13,371 nt of DNA from Naegleria gruberi (GCA_000004985.1 GG738995.1); one strand, 5' to 3'; counted from the stretch's first letter, positions 142 through 13,371 are shown. Notes: generated by a model from the letters alone, not told the origin. Translations and numbers: made by a program.

Positions 142-281
142 TGCATGCATGTGGTGAAGCATCATGATGATGATCTAATTGTTTGTTTGATGCATGTATC
201 AAACTTGTAATCCATTGCATGCATCTAATAACACATCCATTCAACCTTCACATGCCGAATCATCATGGTTAAACATGCATG
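142..281. promoter_or_regulatory. Cluster of TGCATG-core motifs in the 5' flank of the large + ORF, including three 8-bp perfect palindromes (TGCATGCA/CATGCATG)
   Basis: Read directly from the sequence. tgcatgcatg at 142-151, tgcatg at 191-196, tgcatgcat at 216-224, catgcatg at 274-281. That is five TGCATG hexamers in 140 bp, against an expectation of ~0.05 for this base composition. CATGCATG and TGCATGCA are each their own reverse complement. TGCAT is the reported recognition core of APSES-type fungal regulators (Efg1 / Phd1 / Sok2 class). Confidence 0.35.
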
Positions 282-676: not shown

Positions 677-3600
677 ATGAAGAAGAACCAGAATTCCAAC
701 AACATGTCATTCATTGATGAAACTAGCAATGTTACAAAGAAAGCAAAAGTGAAAAAGAGAAATAAGGAATTGAAAATTAAACAATCGAGATTGAGAAAAC
801 CATTACAAAATGATAATTTATTGAAAAATTATTTTGAATTTGATAAGCAACAATTAACAGAAAGTGATTTGACTATTTACAAAATTATTAATNNNNNNNN
901 NNNNNNNNNNNNNNNNNNNNNNNNNNNNNNNNNNNNNNNNNNNNNNNNNNNNNNNNNNNNNNNNNNNNNNNNNNNNNNNNNNNNNNNNNNNNNNNNNNNN
1001 NNNNNNNNNNNNNNNNNNNNNNNNNNNNNNNNNNNNNNNNNNNNNNNNNNNNNNNNNNNNNNNNNNNNNNNNNNNNNNNNNNNNNNNNNNNNNNNNNNNN
1101 NNNNNNNNNNNNNNNNNNNNNNNNNNNNNNNNNNNNNNNNNNNNNNNNNNNNNNNNNNNNNNNNNNNNNNNNNNNNNNNNNNNNNNNNNNNNNNNNNNNN
1201 NNNNNNNNNNNNNNNNNNNNNNNNNNNNNNNNNNNNNNNNNNNNNNNNNNNNNNNNNNNNNNNNNNNNNNNNNNNNNNNNNNNNNNNNNNNNNNNNNNNN
1301 NNNNNNNNNNNNNNNNNNNNNNNNNNNNNNNNNNNNNNNNNNNNNNNNNNNNNNNNNNNNNNNNNNNNNNNNNNNNNNNNNNNNNNNNNNNNNNNNNNNN
1401 NNNNNNNNNNNNNNNNNNNNNNNNNNNNNNNNNNNNNNNNNNNNNNNNNNNNNNNNNNNNNNNNNNNNNNNNNNNNNNNNNNNNNNNNNNNNNNNNNNNN
1501 NNNNNNNNNNNNNNNNNNNNNNNNNNNNNNNNNNNNNNNNNNNNNNNNNNNNNNNNNNNNNNNNNNNNNNNNNNNNNNNNNNNNNNNNNNNNNNNNNNNN
1601 NNNNNNNNNNNNNNNNNNNNNNNNNNNNNNNNNNNNNNNNNNNNNNNNNNNNNNNNNNNNNNNNNNNNNNNNNNNNNNNNNNNNNNNNNNNNNNNNNNNN
1701 NNNNNNNNNNNNNNNNNNNNNNNNNNNNNNNNNNNNNNNNNNNNNNNNNNNNNNNNNNNNNNNNNNNNNNNNNNNNNNNNNNNNNNNNNNNNNNNNNNNN
1801 NNNNNNNNNNNNNNNNNNNNNNNNNNNNNNNNNNNNNNNNNNNNNNNNNNNNNNNNNNNNNNNNNNNNNNNNNNNNNNNNNNNNNNNNNNNNNNNNNNNN
1901 NNNNNNNNNNNNNNNNNNNNNNNNNNNNNNNNNNNNNNNNNNNNNNNNNNNNNNNNNNNNNNNNNNNNNNNNNNNNNNNNNNNNNNNNNNNNNNNNNNNN
2001 NNNNNNNNNNNNNNNNNNNNNNNNNNNNNNNNNNNNNNNNNNNNNNNNNNNNNNNNNNNNNNNNNNNNNNNNNNNNNNNNNNNNNNNNNNNNNNNNNNNN
2101 NNNNNNNNNNNNNNNNNNNNNNNNNNNNNNNNNNNNNNNNNNNNNNNNNNNNNNNNNNNNNNNNNNNNNNNNNNNNNNNNNNNNNNNNNNNNNNNNNNNN
2201 NNNNNNNNNNNNNNNNNNNNNNNNNNNNNNNNNNNNNNNNNNNNNNNNNNNNNNNNNNNNNNNNNNNNNNNNNNNNNNNNNNNNNNNNNNNNNNNNNNNN
2301 NNNNNNNNNNNNNNNNNNNNNNNNNNNNNNNNNNNNNNNNNNNNNNNNNNNNNNNNNNNNNNNNNNNNNNNNNNNNNNNNNNNNNNNNNNNNNNNNNNNN
2401 NNNNNNNNNNNNNNNNNNNNNNNNNNNNNNNNNNNNNNNNNNNNNNNNNNNNNNNNNNNNNNNNNNNNNNNNNNNNNNNNNNNNNNNNNNNNNNNNNNNN
2501 NNNNNNNNNNNNNNNNNNNNNNNNNNNNNNNNNNNNNNNNNNNNNNNNNNNNNNNNNNNNNNNNNNNNNNNNNNNNNNNNNNNNNNNNNNNNNNNNNNNN
2601 NNNNNNNNNNNNNNNNNNNNNNNNNNNNNNNNNNNNNNNNNNNNNNNNNNNNNNNNNNNNNNNNNNNNNNNNNNNNNNNNNNNNNNNNNNNNNNNNNNNN
2701 NNNNNNNNNNNNNNNNNNNNNNNNNNNNNNNNNNNNNNNNNNNNNNNNNNNNNNNNNNNNNNNNNNNNNNNNNNNNNNNNNNNNNNNNNNNNNNNNNNNN
2801 NNNNNNNNNNNNNNNNNNNNNNNNNNNNNNNNNNNNNNNNNNNNNNNNNNNNNNNNNNNNNNNNNNNNNNNNNNNNNNNNNNNNNNNNNNNNNNNNNNNN
2901 NNNNNNNNNNNNNNNNNNNNNNNNNNNNNNNNNNNNNNNNNNNNNNNNNNNNNNNNNNNNNNNNNNNNNNNNNNNNNNNNNNNNNNNNNNNNNNNNNNNN
3001 NNNNNNNNNNNNNNNNNNNNNNNNNNNNNNNNNNNNNNNNNNNNNNNNNNNNNNNNNNNNNNNNNNNNNNNNNNNNNNNNNNNNNNNNNNNNNNNNNNNN
3101 NNNNNNNNNNNNNNNNNNNNNNNNNNNNNNNNNNNNNNNNNNNNNNNNNNNNNNNNNNNNNNNNNNNNNNNNNNNNNNNNNNNNNNNNNNNNNNNNNNNN
3201 NNNNNNNNNNNNNNNNNNNNNNNNNNNNNNNNNNNNNNNNNNNNNNNNNNNNNNNNNNNNNNNNNNNNNNNNNNNNNNNNNNNNNNNNNNNNNNNNNNNN
3301 NNNNNNNNNNNNNNNNNNNNNNNNNNNNNNNNNNNNNNNNNNNNNNNNNNNNNNNNNNNNNNNNNNNNNNNNNNNNNNNNNNNNNNNNNNNNNNNNNNNN
3401 NNNNNNNNNNNNNNNNNNNNNNNNNNNNNNNNNNNNNNNNNNNNNNNNNNNNNNNNNNNNNNNNNNNNNNNNNNNNNNNNNNNNNNNNNNNNNNNNNNNN
3501 NNNNNNNNNNNNNNNNNNNNNNNNNNNNNNNNNNNNNNNNNNNNNNNNNNNNNNNNNNNNNNNNNNNNNNNNNNNNNNNNNNNNNNNNNNNNNNNNNNNN

Positions 3601-5476
3601 NNNNNNNNNNNNNNNNNNNNNNNNNNNNNNNNNNNNNNNNNNNNNNNNNNNNNNNNNNNNNNNNNNNNNNNNNNNNNNNNNNNNNNNNNNNNNNNNNNNN
3701 NNNNNNNNNNNNNNNNNNNNNNNNNNNNNNNNNNNNNNNNNNNNNNNNNNNNNNNNNNNNNNNNNNNNNNNNNNNNNNNNNNNNNNNNNNNNNNNNNNNN
3801 NNNNNNNNNNNNNNNNNNNNNNNNNNNNNNNNNNNNNNNNNNNNNNNNNNNNNNNNNNNNNNNNNNNNNNNNNNNNNNNNNNNNNNNNNNNNNNNNNNNN
3901 NNNNNNNNNNNNNNNNNNNNNNNNNNNNNNNNNNNNNNNNNNNNNNNNNNNNNNNNNNNNNNNNNNNNNNNNNNNNNNNNNNNNNNNNNNNNNNNNNNNN
4001 NNNNNNNNNNNNNNNNNNNNNNNNNNNNNNNNNNNNNNNNNNNNNNNNNNNNNNNNNNNNNNNNNNNNNNNNNNNNNNNNNNNNNNNNNNNNNNNNNNNN
4101 NNNNNNNNNNNNNNNNNNNNNNNNNNNNNNNNNNNNNNNNNNNNNNNNNNNNNNNNNNNNNNNNNNNNNNNNNNNNNNNNNNNNNNNNNNNNNNNNNNNN
4201 NNNNNNNNNNNNNNNNNNNNNNNNNNNNNNNNNNNNNNNNNNNNNNNNNNNNNNNNNNNNNNNNNNNNNNNNNNNNNNNNNNNNNNNNNNNNNNNNNNNN
4301 NNNNNNNNNNNNNNNNNNNNNNNNNNNNNNNNNNNNNNNNNNNNNNNNNNNNNNNNNNNNNNNNNNNNNNNNNNNNNNNNNNNNNNNNNNNNNNNNNNNN
4401 NNNNNNNNNNNNNNNNNNNNNNNNNNNNNNNNNNNNNNNNNNNNNNNNNNNNNNNNNNNNNNNNNNNNNNNNNNNNNNNNNNNNNNNNNNNNNNNNNNNN
4501 NNNNNNNNNNNNNNNNNNNNNNNNNNNNNNNNNNNNNNNNNNNNNNNNNNNNNNNNNNNNNNNNNNNNNNNNNNNNNNNNNNNNNNNNNNNNNNNNNNNN
4601 NNNNNNNNNNNNNNNNNNNNNNNNNNNNNNNNNNNNNNNNNNNNNNNNNNNNNNNNNNNNNNNNNNNNNNNNNNNNNNNNNNNNNNNNNNNNNNNNNNNN
4701 NNNNNNNNNNNNNNNNNNNNNNNNNNNNNNNNNNNNNNNNNNNNNNNNNNNNNNNNNNNNNNNNNNNNNNNNNNNNNNNNNNNNNNNNNNNNNNNNNNNN
4801 NNNNNNNNNNNNNNNNNNNNNNNNNNNNNNNNNNNNNNNNNNNNNNNNNNNNNNNNNNNNNNNNNNNNNNNNNNNNNNNNNNNNNNNNNNNNNNNNNNNN
4901 NNNNNNNNNNNNNNNNNNNNNNNNNNNNNNNNNNNNNNNNNNNNNNNNNNNNNNNNNNNNNNNNNNNNNNNNNNNNNNNNNNNNNNNNNNNNNNNNNNNN
5001 NNNNNNNNNNNNNNNNNNNNNNNNNNNNNNNNNNNNNNNNNNNNNNNNNNNNNNNNNNNNNNNNNNNNNNNNNNNNNNNNNNNNNNNNNNNNNNNNNNNN
5101 NNNNNNNNNNNNNNNNNNNNNNNNNNNNNNNNNNNNNNNNNNNNNNNNNNNNNNNNNNNNNNNNNNNNNNNNNNNNNNNNNNNNNNNNNNNNNNNNNNNN
5201 NNNNNNNNNNNNNNNNNNNNNNNNNNNNNNNNNNNNNNNNNNNNNNNNNNNNNNNNNNNNNNNNNNNNNNNNNNNNNNNNNNNNNNNNNNNNNNNNNNNN
5301 NNNNNNNNNNNNNNNNNNNNNNNNNNNNNNNNNNNNNNNNNNNNNNNNNNNNNNNNNNNNNNNNNNNNNNNNNNNNNNNNNNNNNNNNNNNNNNNNNNNN
5401 NNNNNNNNNNNNNNNNNNNNNNNNNNNNNNNNNNNNNNNNNNNNNNTCAATACTATTAAAAAACAGTTTATTCTAA
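677..5476 (+). CDS. Large + strand ORF, partially visible. Only the N-terminal 72 codons (677-892) and a putative last 10 codons (5447-5476) are readable, and the rest is N-masked. The N-terminus is Lys/Arg-rich and NLS-like (KKAKVKKRNKELKIKQSRLRKP). Product unknown.
   Basis: ATG at 677 is the first ATG after an in-frame TAA at 650-652. The frame stays open for 72 codons until the mask begins. Mask length (4554) is divisible by 3, so the track frame continues to TAA at 5474-5476, but frame continuity across the mask cannot be verified. Composition (K/N/S/Q-rich) matches the other genes here. Confidence 0.45.
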   Translation: MKKNQNSNNMSFIDETSNVTKKAKVKKRNKELKIKQSRLRKPLQNDNLLKNYFEFDKQQLTESDLTIYKIINXXXXXXXXXXXXXXXXXXXXXXXXXXXXXXXXXXXXXXXXXXXXXXXXXXXXXXXXXXXXXXXXXXXXXXXXXXXXXXXXXXXXXXXXXXXXXXXXXXXXXXXXXXXXXXXXXXXXXXXXXXXXXXXXXXXXXXXXXXXXXXXXXXXXXXXXXXXXXXXXXXXXXXXXXXXXXXXXXXXXXXXXXXXXXXXXXXXXXXXXXXXXXXXXXXXXXXXXXXXXXXXXXXXXXXXXXXXXXXXXXXXXXXXXXXXXXXXXXXXXXXXXXXXXXXXXXXXXXXXXXXXXXXXXXXXXXXXXXXXXXXXXXXXXXXXXXXXXXXXXXXXXXXXXXXXXXXXXXXXXXXXXXXXXXXXXXXXXXXXXXXXXXXXXXXXXXXXXXXXXXXXXXXXXXXXXXXXXXXXXXXXXXXXXXXXXXXXXXXXXXXXXXXXXXXXXXXXXXXXXXXXXXXXXXXXXXXXXXXXXXXXXXXXXXXXXXXXXXXXXXXXXXXXXXXXXXXXXXXXXXXXXXXXXXXXXXXXXXXXXXXXXXXXXXXXXXXXXXXXXXXXXXXXXXXXXXXXXXXXXXXXXXXXXXXXXXXXXXXXXXXXXXXXXXXXXXXXXXXXXXXXXXXXXXXXXXXXXXXXXXXXXXXXXXXXXXXXXXXXXXXXXXXXXXXXXXXXXXXXXXXXXXXXXXXXXXXXXXXXXXXXXXXXXXXXXXXXXXXXXXXXXXXXXXXXXXXXXXXXXXXXXXXXXXXXXXXXXXXXXXXXXXXXXXXXXXXXXXXXXXXXXXXXXXXXXXXXXXXXXXXXXXXXXXXXXXXXXXXXXXXXXXXXXXXXXXXXXXXXXXXXXXXXXXXXXXXXXXXXXXXXXXXXXXXXXXXXXXXXXXXXXXXXXXXXXXXXXXXXXXXXXXXXXXXXXXXXXXXXXXXXXXXXXXXXXXXXXXXXXXXXXXXXXXXXXXXXXXXXXXXXXXXXXXXXXXXXXXXXXXXXXXXXXXXXXXXXXXXXXXXXXXXXXXXXXXXXXXXXXXXXXXXXXXXXXXXXXXXXXXXXXXXXXXXXXXXXXXXXXXXXXXXXXXXXXXXXXXXXXXXXXXXXXXXXXXXXXXXXXXXXXXXXXXXXXXXXXXXXXXXXXXXXXXXXXXXXXXXXXXXXXXXXXXXXXXXXXXXXXXXXXXXXXXXXXXXXXXXXXXXXXXXXXXXXXXXXXXXXXXXXXXXXXXXXXXXXXXXXXXXXXXXXXXXXXXXXXXXXXXXXXXXXXXXXXXXXXXXXXXXXXXXXXXXXXXXXXXXXXXXXXXXXXXXXXXXXXXXXXXXXXXXXXXXXXXXXXXXXXXXXXXXXXXXXXXXXXXXXXXXXXXXXXXXXXXXXXXXXXXXXXXXXXXXXXXXXXXXXXXXXXXXXXXXXXXXXXXXXXXXXXXXXXXXXXXXXXXXXXXXXXXXXXXXXXXXXXXXXXXXXXXXXXXXXXXXXXXXXXXXXXXXXXXXXXXXXXXXXXXXXXXXXXXXXXXXXXXXXXXXXXXXXXXXXXXXXXXXXXXXXXXXXXXXXXXXXXXXSILLKNSLF
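893..5446. other. N-masked block, 4554 nt. No sequence information.
   Basis: Run of n. Length is a multiple of 3. Confidence 0.99.
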
Positions 5477-6526
5477 ATGAAATGTCCAAACTGGAAAGTG
5501 AAATTCCATTTGAGTTTGTGCTGGATTTGTATTGGCTGAATTCTTTCTCTTTTGATATTTTCTTCTTCTTTTCAAATGTTTTGGATTTGAAATTACAATA
5601 CAATTTTTGAGTGGAGTTTTGAATGTTGTTGATAATGAACTGTTATTACCAATTGAGGATACATTACTTGTAGATGATGAGGAGGATGAAATTGAGATTT
5701 TTCTCTTTTCTGATTCGAATGAAGATACATTAGAAATCTTTCTCTTTCTCTTTAGAATACGATTATCATTGAATGTATTGTTTACATTAGTTTGTTGTTG
5801 GAGTGGCATCATGGATGTTTCAATTGATGATGATGGTGGTGATTGATCCACATATTGTTGATAAGGATTCTTAATGCTCATCAGAAATTGATATGATTCT
5901 AAATTGGGTAAAAGTACCTTATCAGCAGTGTCAGTATTAGAAATGGTATTGGTCAGGCTATTTTCGTTATGGTTATTGAATGGTTGAGGAGGTGAGGTGT
6001 TAAGAGTCAGAGATAATGTTTCTGTTGGTGATAGGAACAGTTGAGTTGATGGTTGAGGTGATGGAAATACAATATGGGATTTGGATAAGTGTGGTGGAGT
6101 GTCCTTCATATCATCATCATGATCATCAATAGGATTCATAACAGTTGAGCTGATGTTAGTACATTGGATATTATTGAAGGCTGACATTTGTTGAATAGAA
6201 GGCTTGTCATTAGGCTTTCTATTAAATAATTGTTGCTTTGGATTTGTCATCATCTTTAATAATTCCCAACTCTGCATAAAATCAATAACATCAAGATTCA
6301 GACTTGGTTCAACACATTGATTGTTAATTGAGTAGTTTGAGAATGATGATGAAAATTGAGTGACCATTCCACAAAGAACATCAACTGTACAGGTATGAGC
6401 AGGAGAGGAATATTCATTTATCCAACTTGAAGTCGAGTTATTGTTCATCATAATGTTTGTTTTTTTGAGAATATTCATTGAATATTTCTTCTGCATAAAC
6501 TCCAAAGAGAATTGCATCTCGCCCAA
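5447..6526. repeat. Tandem duplication, copy 1: gene A plus 21 nt of its 3' flank
   Basis: Colinear with 6878-7727. The offset is 1431 nt at the stop codons and 1419 nt at the MQSW codon. The 3'-flank fragments also match: actattaaaaaacagtttattc vs atattattaaaaaaacaatttattc. Confidence 0.8.
5468..6517 (-). CDS. Gene A, the complete tandem paralog. 349 aa, S/T/N/Q-rich protein with a bipartite-NLS-like KRKRKISNVSSFESEKRK motif and a C-terminal basic cluster KHLKRRRKYQKRK, ending ...MEFHFPVWTFHLE. Function unknown, probably nuclear.
   Basis: Long open frame on the minus strand, with stop TAA at 5470-5468. The track's start at 6526 is TTG, and the first ATG is at 6517-6515 (MQFSLEF...). An in-frame TGA lies 4 codons upstream of the TTG. 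The protein is ~75% identical to the visible part of gene B, and every indel between them is a multiple of 3 nt. This shows the frame is under coding constraint. Confidence 0.75.
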   Translation of the reverse strand: MQFSLEFMQKKYSMNILKKTNIMMNNNSTSSWINEYSSPAHTCTVDVLCGMVTQFSSSFSNYSINNQCVEPSLNLDVIDFMQSWELLKMMTNPKQQLFNRKPNDKPSIQQMSAFNNIQCTNISSTVMNPIDDHDDDMKDTPPHLSKSHIVFPSPQPSTQLFLSPTETLSLTLNTSPPQPFNNHNENSLTNTISNTDTADKVLLPNLESYQFLMSIKNPYQQYVDQSPPSSSIETSMMPLQQQTNVNNTFNDNRILKRKRKISNVSSFESEKRKISISSSSSSTSNVSSIGNNSSLSTTFKTPLKNCIVISNPKHLKRRRKYQKRKNSANTNPAQTQMEFHFPVWTFHLE

Positions 6527-6686
6527 TTTATTCTCTCATATTTCCAATACTTGATGTACTTGAAGAATAATGTTAGTAATTGAGGTCCTTAAAAATACAA
6601 AATCCTTAAACAACTATGCTGTGGCACTCCTTCTTAATAGAATGTCAGTAAGTGTTAGGGTAAATTCTGGTTCATCGTATTTCGAA

Positions 6687-6692
6687 ATTATA
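6687..6692 (-). promoter_or_regulatory. TATAAT on the minus strand, ~170 bp upstream of gene A's ATG
   Basis: Plus-strand attata at 6687-6692. It is the only TATA-like element in the 381-bp gap between the B stop and the A start. Confidence 0.2.
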
Positions 6693-6839
6693 CAATCTCA
6701 CTATTACTTGATCATAAATTGTATATTCTTTACAGAAGTTTATTTTCACTTTCATTATTTAATTCAATAAAATTGAAAATTGAAGATGAATTTAATAAAT
6801 TATCTGCTTCTTCAAGTGGTAATGAATAATTATCTTGTT

Positions 6840-6901
6840 GAATATTAAATTATTCGGACACACAGAGAATATAAAACAAATATTATTAAAAAAACAATTT
6901 A
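6840..6901 (-). terminator. Putative 3'-end formation signals of gene B
   Basis: Minus-strand sense reads ...TTTCATTTAGAATAAATTGTTTTTTTAATAATATTTGTTTTATATTCTCTGTG. AATAAA overlaps the stop codon and is followed by a TTTTATAT (TATATA-type) efficiency-like element. This is the yeast-type poly(A) signal pattern. Confidence 0.3.
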
Positions 6902-7727
6902 TTCTAAATGAAAAGTCCAAACTGGAAAGTGAAATTCCATTTGAGTTTGAGCAGGATTTGTATTGGCTGAATTCTTTCTCTTTTGATATTTTCTTCTTCT
7001 TTTCAAATGTTTTGGATTTGAAATTACAATACAATTATTGAATGATTGTTGTGAGTGTACATTTGTTGATAATGAACTATTATTACCAATTGAGGATGAA
7101 TTACTTGAACATGTTGTAGGTGGTGTGGTGGATGAAATTGAGGTTTTTCTCTTTTCTGATTCGAATGAAGATACATTAGAAATCTTTCTCTTTCTCTTTA
7201 GAATACGATTATCATCCTTCTTGTTGAATGTATTGTTTACATTAGTTTGTTGTTGGAGTGACATCATGGATATATCATTTGATGGTGGTGGTGATTGATC
7301 ATAATGTTCATGATAAGGATTCTTGGGAAATTGATATGATTCTAAATTGGTTAAAAGTACCTTATCAGCAGTGTCAGTATTAGAAATGGTATTGGCCAGC
7401 CTATTTTCAATAGCATTAGCATTGAATGGTTGCTGATGAGGAGATGGTGATGTGTTAAGTGTCAGAAGAGATAATGTCTCAGTTGATGATGGTAATACAA
7501 TATGGCATGTGGATGAGTGTGATGGAGTGCACTTAATATCAGCATCAATAGAATTCATAACAGTTGAGGTGATTTTAGTACATTGGATATTATTGAAGGC
7601 TGACATTTGTTGAATAGAAGGCTTGTCAAAAGGCTTTCTATTAAATAATTGTTGCTTTGGAGTTGTCATCATCTTTAATAATTCCCAACTCTGCATAAAC
7701 TCAATAACATCAAGATTTAGACTGTCA
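6878..7727. repeat. Tandem duplication, copy 2: visible part of gene B plus its 3' flank. Continues into mask 2.
   Basis: Same alignment as copy 1. Confidence 0.8.
6899..7727 (-). CDS. Gene B, the tandem paralog of gene A. The C-terminal 276 codons are visible and the 5' end runs into mask 2. Same architecture as A: conserved FMQSWELLKMMT.PKQQLFNRKP block, ANTISNTDTADKVLL block, KRKRK-X10-KRK, and an identical 45-aa C-terminus.
   Basis: Stop TAA at 6901-6899. The frame is open all the way to the mask edge (…DSLNLDVIEFMQSWELLK…). It is codon-colinear with gene A, with in-frame indels only. The track's start at 7696 is merely the first visible ATG. Homology to A residues 70-83 continues upstream of it. 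Confidence 0.7.
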
Positions 7728-10700
7728 NNNNNNNNNNNNNNNNNNNNNNNNNNNNNNNNNNNNNNNNNNNNNNNNNNNNNNNNNNNNNNNNNNNNNNNNN
7801 NNNNNNNNNNNNNNNNNNNNNNNNNNNNNNNNNNNNNNNNNNNNNNNNNNNNNNNNNNNNNNNNNNNNNNNNNNNNNNNNNNNNNNNNNNNNNNNNNNNN
7901 NNNNNNNNNNNNNNNNNNNNNNNNNNNNNNNNNNNNNNNNNNNNNNNNNNNNNNNNNNNNNNNNNNNNNNNNNNNNNNNNNNNNNNNNNNNNNNNNNNNN
8001 NNNNNNNNNNNNNNNNNNNNNNNNNNNNNNNNNNNNNNNNNNNNNNNNNNNNNNNNNNNNNNNNNNNNNNNNNNNNNNNNNNNNNNNNNNNNNNNNNNNN
8101 NNNNNNNNNNNNNNNNNNNNNNNNNNNNNNNNNNNNNNNNNNNNNNNNNNNNNNNNNNNNNNNNNNNNNNNNNNNNNNNNNNNNNNNNNNNNNNNNNNNN
8201 NNNNNNNNNNNNNNNNNNNNNNNNNNNNNNNNNNNNNNNNNNNNNNNNNNNNNNNNNNNNNNNNNNNNNNNNNNNNNNNNNNNNNNNNNNNNNNNNNNNN
8301 NNNNNNNNNNNNNNNNNNNNNNNNNNNNNNNNNNNNNNNNNNNNNNNNNNNNNNNNNNNNNNNNNNNNNNNNNNNNNNNNNNNNNNNNNNNNNNNNNNNN
8401 NNNNNNNNNNNNNNNNNNNNNNNNNNNNNNNNNNNNNNNNNNNNNNNNNNNNNNNNNNNNNNNNNNNNNNNNNNNNNNNNNNNNNNNNNNNNNNNNNNNN
8501 NNNNNNNNNNNNNNNNNNNNNNNNNNNNNNNNNNNNNNNNNNNNNNNNNNNNNNNNNNNNNNNNNNNNNNNNNNNNNNNNNNNNNNNNNNNNNNNNNNNN
8601 NNNNNNNNNNNNNNNNNNNNNNNNNNNNNNNNNNNNNNNNNNNNNNNNNNNNNNNNNNNNNNNNNNNNNNNNNNNNNNNNNNNNNNNNNNNNNNNNNNNN
8701 NNNNNNNNNNNNNNNNNNNNNNNNNNNNNNNNNNNNNNNNNNNNNNNNNNNNNNNNNNNNNNNNNNNNNNNNNNNNNNNNNNNNNNNNNNNNNNNNNNNN
8801 NNNNNNNNNNNNNNNNNNNNNNNNNNNNNNNNNNNNNNNNNNNNNNNNNNNNNNNNNNNNNNNNNNNNNNNNNNNNNNNNNNNNNNNNNNNNNNNNNNNN
8901 NNNNNNNNNNNNNNNNNNNNNNNNNNNNNNNNNNNNNNNNNNNNNNNNNNNNNNNNNNNNNNNNNNNNNNNNNNNNNNNNNNNNNNNNNNNNNNNNNNNN
9001 NNNNNNNNNNNNNNNNNNNNNNNNNNNNNNNNNNNNNNNNNNNNNNNNNNNNNNNNNNNNNNNNNNNNNNNNNNNNNNNNNNNNNNNNNNNNNNNNNNNN
9101 NNNNNNNNNNNNNNNNNNNNNNNNNNNNNNNNNNNNNNNNNNNNNNNNNNNNNNNNNNNNNNNNNNNNNNNNNNNNNNNNNNNNNNNNNNNNNNNNNNNN
9201 NNNNNNNNNNNNNNNNNNNNNNNNNNNNNNNNNNNNNNNNNNNNNNNNNNNNNNNNNNNNNNNNNNNNNNNNNNNNNNNNNNNNNNNNNNNNNNNNNNNN
9301 NNNNNNNNNNNNNNNNNNNNNNNNNNNNNNNNNNNNNNNNNNNNNNNNNNNNNNNNNNNNNNNNNNNNNNNNNNNNNNNNNNNNNNNNNNNNNNNNNNNN
9401 NNNNNNNNNNNNNNNNNNNNNNNNNNNNNNNNNNNNNNNNNNNNNNNNNNNNNNNNNNNNNNNNNNNNNNNNNNNNNNNNNNNNNNNNNNNNNNNNNNNN
9501 NNNNNNNNNNNNNNNNNNNNNNNNNNNNNNNNNNNNNNNNNNNNNNNNNNNNNNNNNNNNNNNNNNNNNNNNNNNNNNNNNNNNNNNNNNNNNNNNNNNN
9601 NNNNNNNNNNNNNNNNNNNNNNNNNNNNNNNNNNNNNNNNNNNNNNNNNNNNNNNNNNNNNNNNNNNNNNNNNNNNNNNNNNNNNNNNNNNNNNNNNNNN
9701 NNNNNNNNNNNNNNNNNNNNNNNNNNNNNNNNNNNNNNNNNNNNNNNNNNNNNNNNNNNNNNNNNNNNNNNNNNNNNNNNNNNNNNNNNNNNNNNNNNNN
9801 NNNNNNNNNNNNNNNNNNNNNNNNNNNNNNNNNNNNNNNNNNNNNNNNNNNNNNNNNNNNNNNNNNNNNNNNNNNNNNNNNNNNNNNNNNNNNNNNNNNN
9901 NNNNNNNNNNNNNNNNNNNNNNNNNNNNNNNNNNNNNNNNNNNNNNNNNNNNNNNNNNNNNNNNNNNNNNNNNNNNNNNNNNNNNNNNNNNNNNNNNNNN
10001 NNNNNNNNNNNNNNNNNNNNNNNNNNNNNNNNNNNNNNNNNNNNNNNNNNNNNNNNNNNNNNNNNNNNNNNNNNNNNNNNNNNNNNNNNNNNNNNNNNNN
10101 NNNNNNNNNNNNNNNNNNNNNNNNNNNNNNNNNNNNNNNNNNNNNNNNNNNNNNNNNNNNNNNNNNNNNNNNNNNNNNNNNNNNNNNNNNNNNNNNNNNN
10201 NNNNNNNNNNNNNNNNNNNNNNNNNNNNNNNNNNNNNNNNNNNNNNNNNNNNNNNNNNNNNNNNNNNNNNNNNNNNNNNNNNNNNNNNNNNNNNNNNNNN
10301 NNNNNNNNNNNNNNNNNNNNNNNNNNNNNNNNNNNNNNNNNNNNNNNNNNNNNNNNNNNNNNNNNNNNNNNNNNNNNNNNNNNNNNNNNNNNNNNNNNNN
10401 NNNNNNNNNNNNNNNNNNNNNNNNNNNNNNNNNNNNNNNNNNNNNNNNNNNNNNNNNNNNNNNNNNNNNNNNNNNNNNNNNNNNNNNNNNNNNNNNNNNN
10501 NNNNNNNNNNNNNNNNNNNNNNNNNNNNNNNNNNNNNNNNNNNNNNNNNNNNNNNNNNNNNNNNNNNNNNNNNNNNNNNNNNNNNNNNNNNNNNNNNNNN
10601 NNNNNNNNNNNNNNNNNNNNNNNNNNNNNNNNNNNNNNNNNNNNNNNNNNNNNNNNNNNNNNNNNNNNNNNNNNNNNNNNNNNNNNNNNNNNNNNNNNNN

Positions 10701-11837
10701 NNNNNNNNNNNNNNNNNNNNNNNNNNNNNNNNNNNNNNNNNNNNNNNNNNNNNNNNNNNNNNNNNNNNNNNNNNNNNNNNNNNNNNNNNNNNNNNNNNNN
10801 NNNNNNNNNNNNNNNNNNNNNNNNNNNNNNNNNNNNNNNNNNNNNNNNNNNNNNNNNNNNNNNNNNNNNNNNNNNNNNNNNNNNNNNNNNNNNNNNNNNN
10901 NNNNNNNNNNNNNNNNNNNNNNNNNNNNNNNNNNNNNNNNNNNNNNNNNNNNNNNNNNNNNNNNNNNNNNNNNNNNNNNNNNNNNNNNNNNNNNNNNNNN
11001 NNNNNNNNNNNNNNNNNNNNNNNNNNNNNNNNNNNNNNNNNNNNNNNNNNNNNNNNNNNNNNNNNNNNNNNNNNNNNNNNNNNNNNNNNNNNNNNNNNNN
11101 NNNNNNNNNNNNNNNNNNNNNNNNNNNNNNNNNNNNNNNNNNNNNNNNNNNNNNNNNNNNNNNNNNNNNNNNNNNNNNNNNNNNNNNNNNNNNNNNNNNN
11201 NNNNNNNNNNNNNNNNNNNNNNNNNNNNNNNNNNNNNNNNNNNNNNNNNNNNNNNNNNNNNNNNNNNNNNNNNNNNNNNNNNNNNNNNNNNNNNNNNNNN
11301 NNNNNNNNNNNNNNNNNNNNNNNNNNNNNNNNNNNNNNNNNNNNNNNNNNNNNNNNNNNNNNNNNNNNNNNNNNNNNNNNNNNNNNNNNNNNNNNNNNNN
11401 NNNNNNNNNNNNNNNNNNNNNNNNNNNNNNNNNNNNNNNNNNNNNNNNNNNNNNNNNNNNNNNNNNNNNNNNNNNNNNNNNNNNNNNNNNNNNNNNNNNN
11501 NNNNNNNNNNNNNNNNNNNNNNNNNNNNNNNNNNNNNNNNNNNNNNNNNNNNNNNNNNNNNNNNNNNNNNNNNNNNNNNNNNNNNNNNNNNNNNNNNNNN
11601 NNNNNNNNNNNNNNNNNNNNNNNNNNNNNNNNNNNNNNNNNNNNNNNNNNNNNNNNNNNNNNNNNNNNNNNNNNNNNNNNNNNNNNNNNNNNNNNNNNNN
11701 NNNNNNNNNNNNNNNNNNNNNNNNNNNNNNNNNNNNNNNNNNNNNNNNNNNNNNNNNNNNNNNNNNNNNNNNNNNNNNNNNNNNNNNNNNNNNNNNNNNN
11801 NNNNNNNNNNNNNNNNNNNNNNNNNNNNNNNNNNNNN
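7728..11837. other. N-masked block, 4110 nt. No sequence information.
   Basis: Run of n. Length is a multiple of 3. Confidence 0.99.
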
Positions 11838-11891
11838 AATAATTACTGTAAAGTCACCATTTCATCTTGTAGTTATTCTAATAGTAAGTAA
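11838..11891 (+). CDS. Possible last 17 codons (…NNYCKVTISSCSYSNSK*) of a + strand gene whose body lies inside mask 2
   Basis: The frame is open from the mask edge to TAA at 11889-11891. A TGTATAAAA poly(A) efficiency-type element follows ~80 nt downstream. The frame cannot be verified across the mask. Confidence 0.2.
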   Translation, partial: NNYCKVTISSCSYSNSK

Positions 11892-11965
11892 TATTGGTTT
11901 TGTTGTGCATTGATGTTATGGATTGATGATGAAATTTCCAACAATGACTTGAAGAATGTTCGTAC

Positions 11966-11980
11966 TTTGTATAAAAATTG
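11966..11980 (+). terminator. TGTATAAAA / TATAAA yeast-type poly(A) efficiency/positioning element
   Basis: tttgtataaaaattg, read from the sequence, ~80 nt after the TAA at 11891. Confidence 0.2.
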
Positions 11981-12066
11981 ACTTTTGTGATTTGTTTACT
12001 TGATTTGAATGATCATAAAAGATAGTACACCCTACCTACCTTGAACAACTTTACAATATTTTCTAA

Positions 12067-12082
12067 TACTACTACTACTAAC
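12067..12082. repeat. (TAC)4 microsatellite ending in TACTAAC
   Basis: tactactactactaac, read directly. Confidence 0.7.
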
Positions 12083-13371
12083 AATTAAACCAAAGAAGTT
12101 GACAATGTCTCCTTTACAGTCAATTAATATTAATTGTTTGGAATTGCAACTACGCAATTAGAGTAATTTTTTTGCTATTTGAAATATTGTTCCTTTTAAC
12201 AGAATGCTGTTGTTGGGTGAGATTTTTATAGTACGGTTCATTTCAGGCAAGGAAATCTATCAACTTGTTGTGGAAAGGTTCAAATTGATGCTTAATAGAT
12301 AGGTTGTGTGGATTGTTTCCAATTATTAAAATTAGAGGATGCTAGCATTTTCAAACTGTATTGGAAAATCTATTTATGGTTGTAGATATATTGGAGAATC
12401 AGTTAAAGGCACACTTGGTACTAAAAGTATTACAACGGACATCTTTGCAATTCTTTCAATGAGAATTATGGACAAGATGGTTTCCTTACCACAAGTTTAT
12501 TTTGAATAATATGTTCGACGGAGCAATTTCTCAAGTATTTAACTAGTACATTGAACTAATAATCACTGTTAGTGGTTTGTTGAAAATACTGTTTGGTTTA
12601 TCGAACAAAAATAATCACAACCACTACTTGATAGCGTAAGTATGTAATAATGCCAACACCGTTTACAAACGCATAATGCATATGGTTCACAGCTACATAG
12701 GTAAGTTATGCAGTCATATTTCCTCCAACATAGTGTATTCTTGCTACCAAACACAACTATTCGCTAATAAAATTGTTGATGGTAACTGTTGTTGTGGATG
12801 TGGGTGAATCATTAATTATCGAAATTTGTTGTTTTGGTGATTGTGCAGTTAATCAGGTCTTAGAGTATCATTGCCCGTTCCGTCGGTAAATTGTGTAAGG
12901 AAGATGCTTATCACACTATTCAGAATAGAGTTGGTTATGGTTGTATCATCGAATTATCTACAATACGCATGATTCTCAATAGTTTCGTTAATTGAGTGTA
13001 ATTATGTGGTACTAAATGGTATCTTGTAAATTATCAGGGTTTATATGGTTGATAAATAAGAACTATGCCAATTGTACTATATTTCATTTGTTTTGCTAAG
13101 TTGTTGTCGAATATCATTAGGAATCTCGCTCGTAGGTAACACAATTTTTAACACAAAAACGAATTTAACAGTTTTAGTCTCTTGTTGTGTTTTAAGTGAT
13201 ATGGAGATGATTATGAAGTTATTTACAATGCAAATATTTATGTATAGTAGATCTATTTACTGTGTGGAAAAAATCTAGATCCCCAAGCAATGGAGCTTTC
13301 TTTCCAAATAAAAGAATAAGAGTATTGAATGTTGGCTTATCACCAGCACCAACAATAACTTTCTACATTGT

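What the first reader, a model, noticed from the sequence alone, without database searches (positions are those of the whole stretch)
5447..7727. Tandem pair of diverged paralogous genes, unknown family, kept coding by in-frame-only indels
Genes A and B sit head-to-tail on the minus strand, 381 bp apart. They are ~75% identical at the protein level across the visible 270 residues. The alignment has at least six indels, all multiples of 3 nt (+12 codons QPSTQLFLSPTE in A, +2 KK in B, +4 LMSI in A, and others). Substitutions cluster in S/T/P low-complexity stretches (A: ISISSSSSSTSNVSS; B: TSISSTTPPTTCSSNSS). This is the pattern expected for two functional, diverging duplicates, not a gene plus a pseudogene. 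I do not recognise the family from the FMQSWELLKMMT, ANTISNTDTADKVLL or FHFPVWTFHLE blocks. It may be lineage-specific.
Basis: seen in the sequence. Interest (0 to 1): 0.7.

Follow-up and report, generated by a model that had tools for sequence, protein, structure and literature searches.

The report
Naegleria orphan-gene tandem partial duplicate
The two neighbouring genes are real tandem copies from an uncharacterised gene family found only in the amoeba Naegleria gruberi and a close relative, not in a fungus; the shorter copy is a shortened duplicate of a longer gene, which is an ordinary kind of gene-family growth.

Summary
Gene A (5468-6517, minus strand, 349 aa) and gene B (6899-7727, runs into an N run) lie head to tail, 381 bp apart. 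They are 71% identical by BLASTP, or 83% over aligned columns. There are 10 indels and all are in frame.

The source is not a fungus. The window is a complete 13,371-bp scaffold of Naegleria gruberi. The annotated protein EFC35884 is an exact substring of B. Gene A is not annotated on this scaffold.

The same B-then-A pair is annotated on two large scaffolds (EFC38149/38150 and EFC38099-38101). There the B-type protein is 798 aa. Gene A is therefore a 5'-truncated copy covering about aa 455-798. A 38-codon relic of the upstream part (6745-6846) survives between the two genes. A third member starts on the opposite strand at 677.

The family has no Pfam, PDB, viral or JGI-metagenome relatives. 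AlphaFold predicts disorder, apart from one short helix and an invariant C-terminal block, KHLKRRRKYQKRKNSA..NPAQ..MEFHFPVWTFHLE.

dN/dS between A and B is 0.82 (CI 0.51-1.41). Only the two motifs show clear purifying selection (about 0.12-0.2 against a distant paralogue).

The most likely function is a disordered nuclear regulator acting through short motifs; this is inferred, not shown. Overall the finding is ordinary and of modest interest.

The parts
5468..6517 (-). Gene A: 349-aa ORF including its stop. It is an A-type, 5'-truncated family member and is not annotated on this scaffold.
   Evidence: ORF. It is 99% identical to EFC38150 (P0001) and 95% to EFC38101 (P0004). The exact sequence is absent from the protein collection.
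6899..7727 (-). Gene B, visible 3' part: 275 codons plus stop. The gene continues into the N run at 7728-11837. It is a B-type (long-form) member.
   Evidence: tblastn places P0007 aa 526-798 at 7723-6902 with 96% identity. EFC35884 (P0006, 235 aa) is an exact substring, corresponding to 6899-7606.
6745..6846 (-). Relic or possible upstream exon, 'QQDNYSLPLEEADNLLNSSSIFNFIELNNES'. It is homologous to aa 455-492 of the long form and lies between B's stop and A's ATG. It has no ATG and is bounded by stops.
   Evidence: tblastn gives 74% identity over 38 aa, E = 3e-7.
6518..6898 (-). 381-bp spacer. It holds B's 3' flank, the relic, and A's presumed promoter and 5' UTR.
5471..5581 (-). C-terminal family signature in A: KHLKRRRKYQKRKNSANTNPAQTQMEFHFPVWTFHLE, made of a basic cluster plus an aromatic tail that contains FHFP.
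   Evidence: Nearly invariant across 11 family members. dN/dS is 0.14 against L001 with dS 0.53. pLDDT is 51-67, the highest region together with the helix.
6902..7012 (-). The same C-terminal signature in B.
   Evidence: dN/dS 0.12 against L001.
6257..6304 (-). N-block motif SLNLDVIDFMQSWELL in A, a predicted short helix.
   Evidence: Conserved in the family. AlphaFold helix at residues 77-91, and in P0010 at 39-58 with pLDDT about 76.
7676..7723 (-). N-block motif SLNLDVIEFMQSWELL in B.
5447..5467 (-). Start of A's 3' flank, homologous to B's 3' flank at 6878-6898. The repeat unit extends beyond the coding sequence.
   Evidence: repeat family D2: 5458-5613 versus 6889-7044, 96%.
677..892 (+). 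5' end of a third family member, with a long-form N-terminal module, on the opposite strand. It runs into the N run at 893-5446.
   Evidence: 70% identical to P0007 aa 24-91, E = 7e-24. 82% identical to EFC35725 (P0016), which lies on another small scaffold.

Best explanation
The region is a tandem, partial gene duplication inside a Naegleria gruberi-specific orphan gene family. The ancestral B-type gene encodes a protein of about 800 aa. A segment running from about codon 455 to roughly 50 bp past the stop codon was duplicated head to tail. The downstream copy, A, lost its connection to the upstream exons. What remains of them is a 38-codon relic at 6745-6846. A now reads from a new ATG at 6517 and gives a 349-aa protein.

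The duplication is older than the divergence of the three copies of this locus in the assembly, because A-types group with A-types and B-types with B-types. Both copies have stayed open through at least 10 in-frame indels.

The proteins are almost entirely disordered and rich in S, N, T, Q and P. They carry two classical NLS-like basic clusters (KRKRK and KRRRKYQKRK), one short conserved helix (LDVIDFMQSWELL), and an invariant C-terminal tail (NPAQTQMEFHFPVWTFHLE).

My inferred mechanism, which is not shown, is that they are nuclear regulators or adaptors. They would act through these short motifs while the linker drifts freely. A would then be a shortened isoform-like paralogue that keeps the motif set but lacks the N-terminal module.

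Shown: the anatomy, the homology, the taxonomic restriction, the predicted disorder and the motif constraint. Inferred: nuclear localisation, motif-mediated binding, and independent expression of A.
For: Identity and taxonomy:
- The best hits are N. gruberi predicted proteins at 99% and 70% identity.
- EFC35884 lies on a contig of exactly 13,371 bp and is an exact substring of B.

Long form and truncation:
- P0007 is 798 aa.
- tblastn maps its aa 526-798 onto B, aa 493-798 onto A, aa 455-492 onto 6846-6745, and aa 24-91 onto 686-892 on the plus strand.
- The relic has no ATG and is bounded by stops.

The same arrangement elsewhere:
- B-type and A-type proteins have consecutive accessions on two large scaffolds: EFC38149/38150, and EFC38099+38100/38101.

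Duplication older than the locus copies:
- A against A is 95-99% identical and B against B is 96-100%, but A against B is only 81-84%.

Constraint:
- There are 10 in-frame indels, and at least two of them fall on A's own lineage when polarised with L002.
- There is no rate asymmetry between A and B: 10 versus 6 unique changes, p = 0.45.
- The motifs have dN/dS 0.12-0.27 at dS of about 0.5 against L001.
- The 47-codon stretch from the upstream in-frame stop, through A's ATG, to the start of homology with B would be open by chance only about 3% of the time.

Disorder and motifs:
- Mean pLDDT is 37 for A and 51 for P0010. Only the helix and the C-terminal tail rise above 50.

Orphan status.
Against: - Overall dN/dS between A and B is 0.82 (95% CI 0.51-1.41), so purifying selection over the whole length is not demonstrated.
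- No expression data for either copy could be reached, and no paper mentions these loci.
- The 5' part of B and the body of the third gene lie in N runs, so B's integrity on this scaffold is unknown.
- On the 261-kb scaffold the B-type gene is split into two models, P0005 and P0002. This could reflect a disruption or a modelling error.
- The N-block helix is not amphipathic (hydrophobic moment 0.03), so a simple binding-helix picture is unsupported.
- The NLS and FxFP assignments are pattern matches only.
Confidence: 0.7

Rival explanations
1. Gene A is a young, non-functional partial duplicate, that is, a pseudogene-like relic. It has stayed open only because little time has passed. Only the long B-type gene would be functional.
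For: - A lacks the first ~455 codons of the long form, and the upstream piece is a dead relic.
- dN/dS between A and B is 0.82 and not distinguishable from 1, with dS only 0.117.
- A is not annotated on this scaffold.
Against: - All three A-type copies keep the same 349-351-aa frame.
- At least two indels polarised to A's lineage are in frame.
- Ten of ten indels are in frame. That would be at most about (1/3)^10 if indel lengths were unconstrained.
- A does not evolve faster than B.
- The A-specific N-terminal stretch is open although chance openness is about 3%.
Confidence: 0.17
2. A and B are not separate genes. They are duplicated alternative 3'-terminal exon blocks of one transcription unit. 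The relic at 6745-6846 would be a real exon, spliced in frame to the body of A (donor A|GTGAAA near 6748, acceptor TGTACAG| near 6386). The upstream long-form exons could then be joined to either tail.
For: - The relic keeps 74% amino-acid identity and an open frame over 38 codons.
- A GT..AG pair exists that would join it in frame, giving ...ELNNE-IDVLCGMV, which parallels ...ELNNESDVDVFCGMV in P0007 (read from the sequence and).
- An exon boundary after aa 450 is suggested by the shared 51-aa block in the fucosyltransferase model P0008.
Against: - One chosen donor/acceptor pair being in frame has a 1-in-3 chance.
- Splicing would have to skip the whole B tail and its 3' end.
- The stretch that would be the intron carries a 44-codon open frame with an ATG that is conserved in all A-type models.
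- No transcript data are available.
Confidence: 0.08
3. The pair is an assembly artefact, for example two haplotypes or two dispersed copies wrongly joined on a small, gap-rich scaffold.
For: - The scaffold consists of only three short sequenced pieces (892, 2281 and 1534 bp) separated by N runs of 4554 and 4110 bp.
- Several other tiny scaffolds carry family members (6,848 and 8,928 bp).
Against: - A, the spacer and B lie within one uninterrupted 2281-bp stretch.
- The same B-then-A order is annotated on two large scaffolds.
Confidence: 0.02
4. The repeats are fragments of a mobile element or an endogenous viral element rather than cellular genes.
For: - The family is multi-copy, occurs on several small unplaced scaffolds, and a fragment is embedded in a neighbouring fucosyltransferase gene model.
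Against: - No transposase, integrase, reverse transcriptase or viral domain was found in Pfam.
- No relative was found in IMG/VR or in JGI metagenomes.
- No terminal repeats were found around the unit.
- The copies are local tandem or cluster copies, not dispersed.
Confidence: 0.03

Closest known systems
N. gruberi predicted proteins EFC38150 / XP_002670894 (NAEGRDRAFT_53197) and EFC38101 (NAEGRDRAFT_53310), the A-type copies
   Same: Same length (349-351 aa), same start, and 99% and 95% identity to gene A. Each lies immediately after a B-type gene.
   Different: They lie on the 243,952-bp and 261,328-bp scaffolds. The window copy differs at 3 and 16 residues respectively and is not annotated.
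N. gruberi predicted protein EFC38149 (NAEGRDRAFT_53196, 798 aa), with EFC38099 + EFC38100, the B-type long form
   Same: The C-terminal 273 aa are 96% identical to the visible part of gene B, and the motifs are the same.
   Different: They carry about 500 further N-terminal residues. In the window that region would fall in the N run. The deposited model for the window copy (EFC35884) is cut to 235 aa.
More distant paralogues EFC40497 / EFC35612 (188 aa) and EFC38153 (158 aa), and the ENA metagenome proteins P0003, P0009 and P0015
   Same: They share the LDVxDxxQSWELL block, a KKRK-S-rich block, and the invariant C-terminal KHL.RRRKY.KRK...NPAQ..MEF.FP.WTFH.E.
   Different: Identity is only 38-58% and the linkers cannot be aligned. 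EFC40497 has a 96% identical counterpart (P0015) in the metagenome, whereas P0009, the closest A/B-like protein there, is only 58% identical to A. The A/B branch therefore appears to evolve faster.
Generic class: intrinsically disordered nuclear proteins that act through short linear motifs (classical NLS; FxFP/DEF-type MAPK docking motif). This comparison is recalled from general knowledge.
   Same: Two K/R clusters fit the monopartite NLS pattern. An invariant F[HN]FP fits F-x-F-P. There are many S/T-P and R-K-x-S sites, and disorder is predicted.
   Different: There is no sequence homology to any characterised protein. These are pattern matches of 4-5 residues, and no binding or localisation has been tested.

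Membership tests
N. gruberi orphan family (D2VY74 / D2VY73 / D2VRP4 group; no Pfam entry) | Significant full-length sequence similarity to family members | tested here: met
   A against P0001, E = 3e-220. B against P0007, 96% over 274 aa. The profile search recovers P0002, P0003 and P0009-P0011 with E between 1e-18 and 1e-169.
N. gruberi orphan family | Invariant C-terminal signature H-L-x-R-R-x-x-Y-x-K-R-K ... A-Q-x-x-M-E-F-x-F-P-x-W-T-F-H-x-E at the extreme C-terminus | tested here: met
   Present in both A and B. The columns are invariant across 11 sequences.
N. gruberi orphan family | N-block L-D-[VI]-x-[DE]-[FI]-x-Q-S-W-E-L-L | tested here: met
   Present in A (aa 75-87) and in B (visible aa 5-17).
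Pfam SR-25 (PF10500, nuclear RNA-splicing-associated protein) | Score at or above the gathering threshold of 40 bits | tested here: not met
   14.4-14.7 bits, E about 0.02-0.03. The match falls on the K/R/S-rich low-complexity part.
CCT motif (CONSTANS/TOC1; PF06203). I recalled a resemblance between RRKYQKRKN and RYREKRKNR. | Match to the Pfam CCT profile | tested here: not met
   No CCT hit even at E <= 1 for A, B, P0003, P0004 or P0007.
Classical monopartite NLS-bearing nuclear proteins | K-[KR]-x-[KR] basic cluster, and importin-dependent nuclear import | tested here: inconclusive
   The pattern occurs twice or more per protein: KRKRK, KRRRK and KRK. Import itself cannot be tested with these tools.
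MAPK substrates or regulators with an FxFP (DEF) docking site | An F-x-[FY]-P motif that binds ERK-type kinases | not testable with these tools
   FHFP or FNFP is invariant in the family. This is only a 4-residue pattern match, recalled from knowledge of the motif.
Transposable or viral element genes | Transposase, reverse transcriptase, integrase or capsid domains; terminal repeats; relatives in viral contigs | tested here: not met
   No such Pfam domains. No terminal repeats. No relatives in IMG/VR.
Processed or unprocessed pseudogene | Frameshifts or premature stops relative to the parent gene | tested here: not met
   None in the 349 codons of A or the 275 visible codons of B. The part of B in the N run cannot be tested.

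The most novel reading that the evidence does not exclude
The cluster could be a hypervariable locus that differs between haplotypes and encodes fast-evolving nuclear regulators, for example a self/non-self or mating-type-like region in an amoeba whose sexual cycle has never been observed.

What is compatible with this reading:
- At least three distinguishable versions of the B-A pair exist, plus extra fragments on tiny unplaced scaffolds.
- Similarity between the versions is mosaic. A in the window is nearly the same as A on the 243-kb scaffold, while the B copies on the 243-kb and 261-kb scaffolds are identical and the window B differs from both by 4%.
- dN/dS in the linker is close to 1.

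Nothing here tests this idea.
Probability: 0.04. Interest if true: 0.7.

Novelty: new member of a known kind. Interest (0 to 1): 0.22.

Why it matters
It shows that the pair is one instance of an unnamed gene family restricted to N. gruberi and close relatives, which grows by local partial duplication.

It also gives a tidy example of a 5'-truncated duplicate that gained a new start codon and kept its frame. And it pins down the only constrained parts of the protein, a short helix and a 37-residue basic/aromatic C-terminal tail, which are the obvious handles for any functional study.

Beyond that it is ordinary. Tandem duplicates of orphan, disordered proteins are common in protist genomes, and near-identical copies are already deposited as 'predicted protein'.

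Tried and rejected
- **Pfam** on A, B, ORF C, P0003, P0004, P0005 and P0007 gave only sub-threshold noise: SR-25, DUF3134 and zf-C4pol.
- **PDB** profile search gave nothing; the best hit had E = 0.4 on a Ser-Asp repeat protein.
- **Word-indexed search with the 798-aa P0007** was swamped by low-complexity candidates. It returned only the fucosyltransferase model that shares one 51-aa block.
- **Profile search hits P0012 and P0013** are bacterial repeat proteins that match the linker many times. I rejected them as spurious.
- **JGI metagenome and IMG/VR scans** with the C-terminal motif found no relatives.
- **Exact-protein look-ups** for the N. gruberi genes (A, P0001, P0002) found no DNA. The big scaffolds could therefore not be read, and codon-level comparisons among the three loci were impossible.
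- **AlphaFold** on A and on P0010 gave low-confidence, disordered models. I did not run a fold search because it would be meaningless.
- **Amphipathic N-block helix**: I expected this, but the hydrophobic moment is 0.03 and 98% of shuffles score higher, so I dropped the idea.
- **L001 upstream ORF** ('EGIVELLTDEQ') looked to me like a match to 'EEIAKLLTNPDQ' in P0007. tblastn does not support it.
- **Inverted repeat 670-695 / 6663-6688** (77% over 26 nt) and other cross-contig blastn hits are at chance level.
- **tRNA and Rfam scans** of the window found nothing.
- **The bacterial promoter/terminator scan** is uninformative for a eukaryote.
- **Literature searches** for the locus tags and for the ENA project found nothing.
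Full report
**1. What is in the window**

The window has only three readable stretches: 1-892, 5447-7727 and 11838-13371. They are separated by N runs of 4554 and 4110 bases. The finding covers the whole middle stretch.

On its minus strand there are two long open frames:
- Gene A runs from 6517 (ATG) to 5468 (stop included) and encodes 349 aa.
- Gene B is open from the edge of the N run at 7727 down to its stop at 6899-6901, giving 275 visible codons.

The distance from B's stop to A's ATG is 381 bp.

**2. Checking the observation**

- BLASTP of A against B gives 206/291 identities (71%), E = 2e-114.
- Over columns where both have residues the identity is 83%.
- The DNA is 80% identical.
- A protein-guided alignment has 10 indels of 1-10 codons.
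- The plain DNA alignment gives the same picture: every net gap length is a multiple of three.
- The similarity runs past the stop codons into the 3' flank. The stretch 5458-5613 is 96% identical to 6889-7044, and repeat spacing is 1419-1458 bp.
- With this base composition, open frames of 349 and 275 codons have chance probabilities of about 4e-12 and 1e-9.

**3. Where the sequence comes from**

It is not fungal. The best protein hits are 'predicted protein [Naegleria gruberi]'.

The cluster look-up shows that EFC35884 (NAEGRDRAFT_76456, 235 aa) sits on a contig of exactly 13,371 bp. That protein is an exact substring of gene B, corresponding to 6899-7606. So the window is a complete small scaffold of the N. 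gruberi assembly.

The readable pieces have the size of one to a few Sanger reads. I therefore infer that the N runs are probably real assembly gaps. This is not shown.

Gene A's exact sequence is not in the protein collection, so A is unannotated on this scaffold.

**4. The same gene pair elsewhere in the genome**

A-type proteins:
- EFC38150 (349 aa) is 99% identical to A.
- EFC38101 (351 aa) is 95% identical to A.

B-type proteins:
- EFC38149 (798 aa).
- EFC38099 + EFC38100 (260 + 287 aa), which looks like one gene split into two models.

These have consecutive accessions on scaffolds of 243,952 and 261,328 bp. The B-then-A arrangement is therefore found independently of this small scaffold.

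A-types group together (95-99% identical) and B-types group together (96-100%), while A against B is 81-84%. The A/B duplication therefore predates the divergence of the three locus versions.

The relationships are mosaic. The window A is nearly identical to the A on the 243-kb scaffold. The B copies on the 243-kb and 261-kb scaffolds are identical to each other, and the window B is 4% different from both. This fits alleles or recent segmental copies that recombine or undergo gene conversion.

**5. A is a truncated copy**

tblastn of the 798-aa P0007 against the window gives four matches:

| P0007 residues | Window position | Strand | Identity | What it is |
|---|---|---|---|---|
| 526-798 | 7723-6902 | minus | 96% | gene B |
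| 493-798 | 6385-5471 | minus | 72% | gene A |
| 455-492 | 6846-6745 | minus | 74% (E = 3e-7) | relic in the 'intergenic' spacer |
| 24-91 | 686-892 | plus | 70% | third family member |

The relic reads 'QQDNYSLPLEEADNLLNSSSIFNFIELNNES'. It has no ATG and is bounded by stops.

The duplicated unit therefore began at about codon 455 of a long gene and ended roughly 50 bp past the stop. A's first 44 codons (MQFSLEF...HTCT) have no counterpart in the long form. Homology resumes at VDVLCGMV.

The 47-codon stretch from the upstream in-frame stop, through A's ATG, to the start of homology with B would be open by chance only about 3% of the time. It is kept in all three A-type models. This mildly favours a real, independent start.

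There is an alternative. A GT..AG pair (donor A|GTGAAA near 6748, acceptor TGTACAG| near 6386) would splice the relic in frame to the body of A. This cannot be excluded without transcripts.

**6. Other members and family limits**

- The plus-strand ORF at 677 is the 5' end of a third member that carries the long-form N-terminal module. It matches P0007 with E = 7e-24 and is 82% identical to EFC35725, which lies on an 8,928-bp scaffold.
- A fucosyltransferase model four genes before the pair on the 261-kb scaffold (EFC38095) contains 51 residues that are 88% identical to P0007 aa 400-450.
- An exhaustive HMMER profile search of 1.84 billion representative proteins found only family members: EFC40497 (with EFC35612 on a 6,848-bp scaffold), EFC38153 (three genes after the A-type on the 243-kb scaffold), and proteins from ENA contigs. 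It also returned two spurious bacterial repeat proteins.
- All three ENA contigs come from one sample, ERZ929261. This is presumably a related Naegleria.
- No Pfam family reaches threshold.
- There is no PDB relative.
- There are no relatives in JGI metagenome contigs or IMG/VR.
- No paper names these loci.

The family is a lineage-restricted orphan.

**7. Selection**

- Nei-Gojobori analysis of A against B gives dS 0.117, dN 0.096 and dN/dS 0.82. The bootstrap 95% CI is 0.51-1.41. Averaged over the protein, constraint is not demonstrable.
- Divergence is patchy. The motif regions are almost unchanged and the linker is about 15% diverged at both kinds of site.
- Against the distant paralogue on L001, the C-terminal block has dN/dS 0.12-0.14 at dS 0.5-0.6, and the N-block has 0.27-0.57. 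The motifs are under purifying selection.
- With L002 as outgroup, A-unique and B-unique changes number 10 and 6 (p = 0.45). At least two in-frame indels map to A's own lineage: loss of 'SQQ' and gain of 'LMS'.
- Ten of ten indels in frame, and no stop among about 74 substitutions, argue that both frames have been maintained.

**8. What the proteins look like**

- About 48% of residues are S, T, N, Q or P.
- AlphaFold with the family alignment gives mean pLDDT 37 for A and 51 for the short paralogue P0010.
- Only a helix over the N-block and the last ~35 residues rise above 50. The helix spans residues 77-91 in A, and 39-58 in P0010 with pLDDT about 76.
- The helix is not amphipathic.
- Each protein has basic clusters KRKRK and KRRRKYQKRK, an invariant F[HN]FP, several S/T-P sites and several RK-x-S sites.

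From general knowledge, these fit classical NLSs, an FxFP-type kinase docking motif and phosphorylation sites. They are short pattern matches and I treat them only as leads.

My best functional guess is a disordered nuclear regulator or adaptor that works through these motifs. I put the nuclear localisation at perhaps 50% and any specific partner at well below that.

**9. Verdict**

Three corrections apply:
- The organism is Naegleria gruberi, not a fungus.
- The two copies are not equivalent, because A is a 5'-truncated derivative of a gene of about 800 aa.
- The pair is part of a wider cluster or family whose members are already deposited as hypothetical proteins.

It is an ordinary mode of gene-family growth in an orphan family of unknown function. 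Interest is modest.

Noticed in passing
window 677-892 (+): An ORF starting 'MKKNQNSNNMSFIDETSNVT...' is 70% identical to the N-terminal module of the 798-aa B-type protein. It is 82% identical to EFC35725, which lies on another small N. gruberi scaffold. It is a third family member on the opposite strand and runs into the N run.
   Followed up: partly
window 144-281: The palindrome ATGCATG is clustered here: 6 strand-hits at 4 places, against 1.16 expected for the whole window. The cluster lies about 400-530 bp upstream of the ORF at 677 and may be a regulatory element.
   Followed up: partly
window 6745-6846 (-): A 38-codon relic of long-form residues 455-492 lies between B's stop and A's ATG. 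A GT..AG pair (about 6748 to 6386) would join it in frame to the body of A.
   Followed up: partly
window 893-5446 and 7728-11837: The N runs separate readable pieces of only 892, 2281 and 1534 bp. This looks like a mate-pair scaffold of read-sized contigs with real gaps, typical of an unplaced haplotype or repeat copy.
   Followed up: no
P0008 / EFC38095 (N. gruberi 261,328-bp scaffold; not in the window): A fucosyltransferase gene model (Pfam PF00852) carries 51 residues that are 88% identical to aa 400-450 of the long family protein. This is either a shuffled or duplicated exon, or a fused gene model, four genes before the B/A pair.
   Followed up: partly
L001, L002, L003 (ENA sample ERZ929261, project PRJEB11402): One metagenome sample holds three different family members. 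P0015 is 96% identical to N. gruberi EFC40497, while the A/B-like P0009 is only 58% identical to A. A related Naegleria is presumably present, and evolutionary rates differ strongly between paralogues.
   Followed up: partly
window 5447-5470, 6878-6901 and L002 about 845-880: The first ~25 nt after the stop codon (TAAAYTGTTTTTTTAATARTATT) are conserved between A, B and the metagenome homologue. This may be a 3'-end or polyadenylation signal.
   Followed up: no
window 5607-5846 (+) and 7038-7298 (+): Antisense ORFs of 79 and 86 aa (rich in D, E, L and F) lie opposite the S/T/N-rich parts of A and B. They are most likely a by-product of the biased composition.
   Followed up: no
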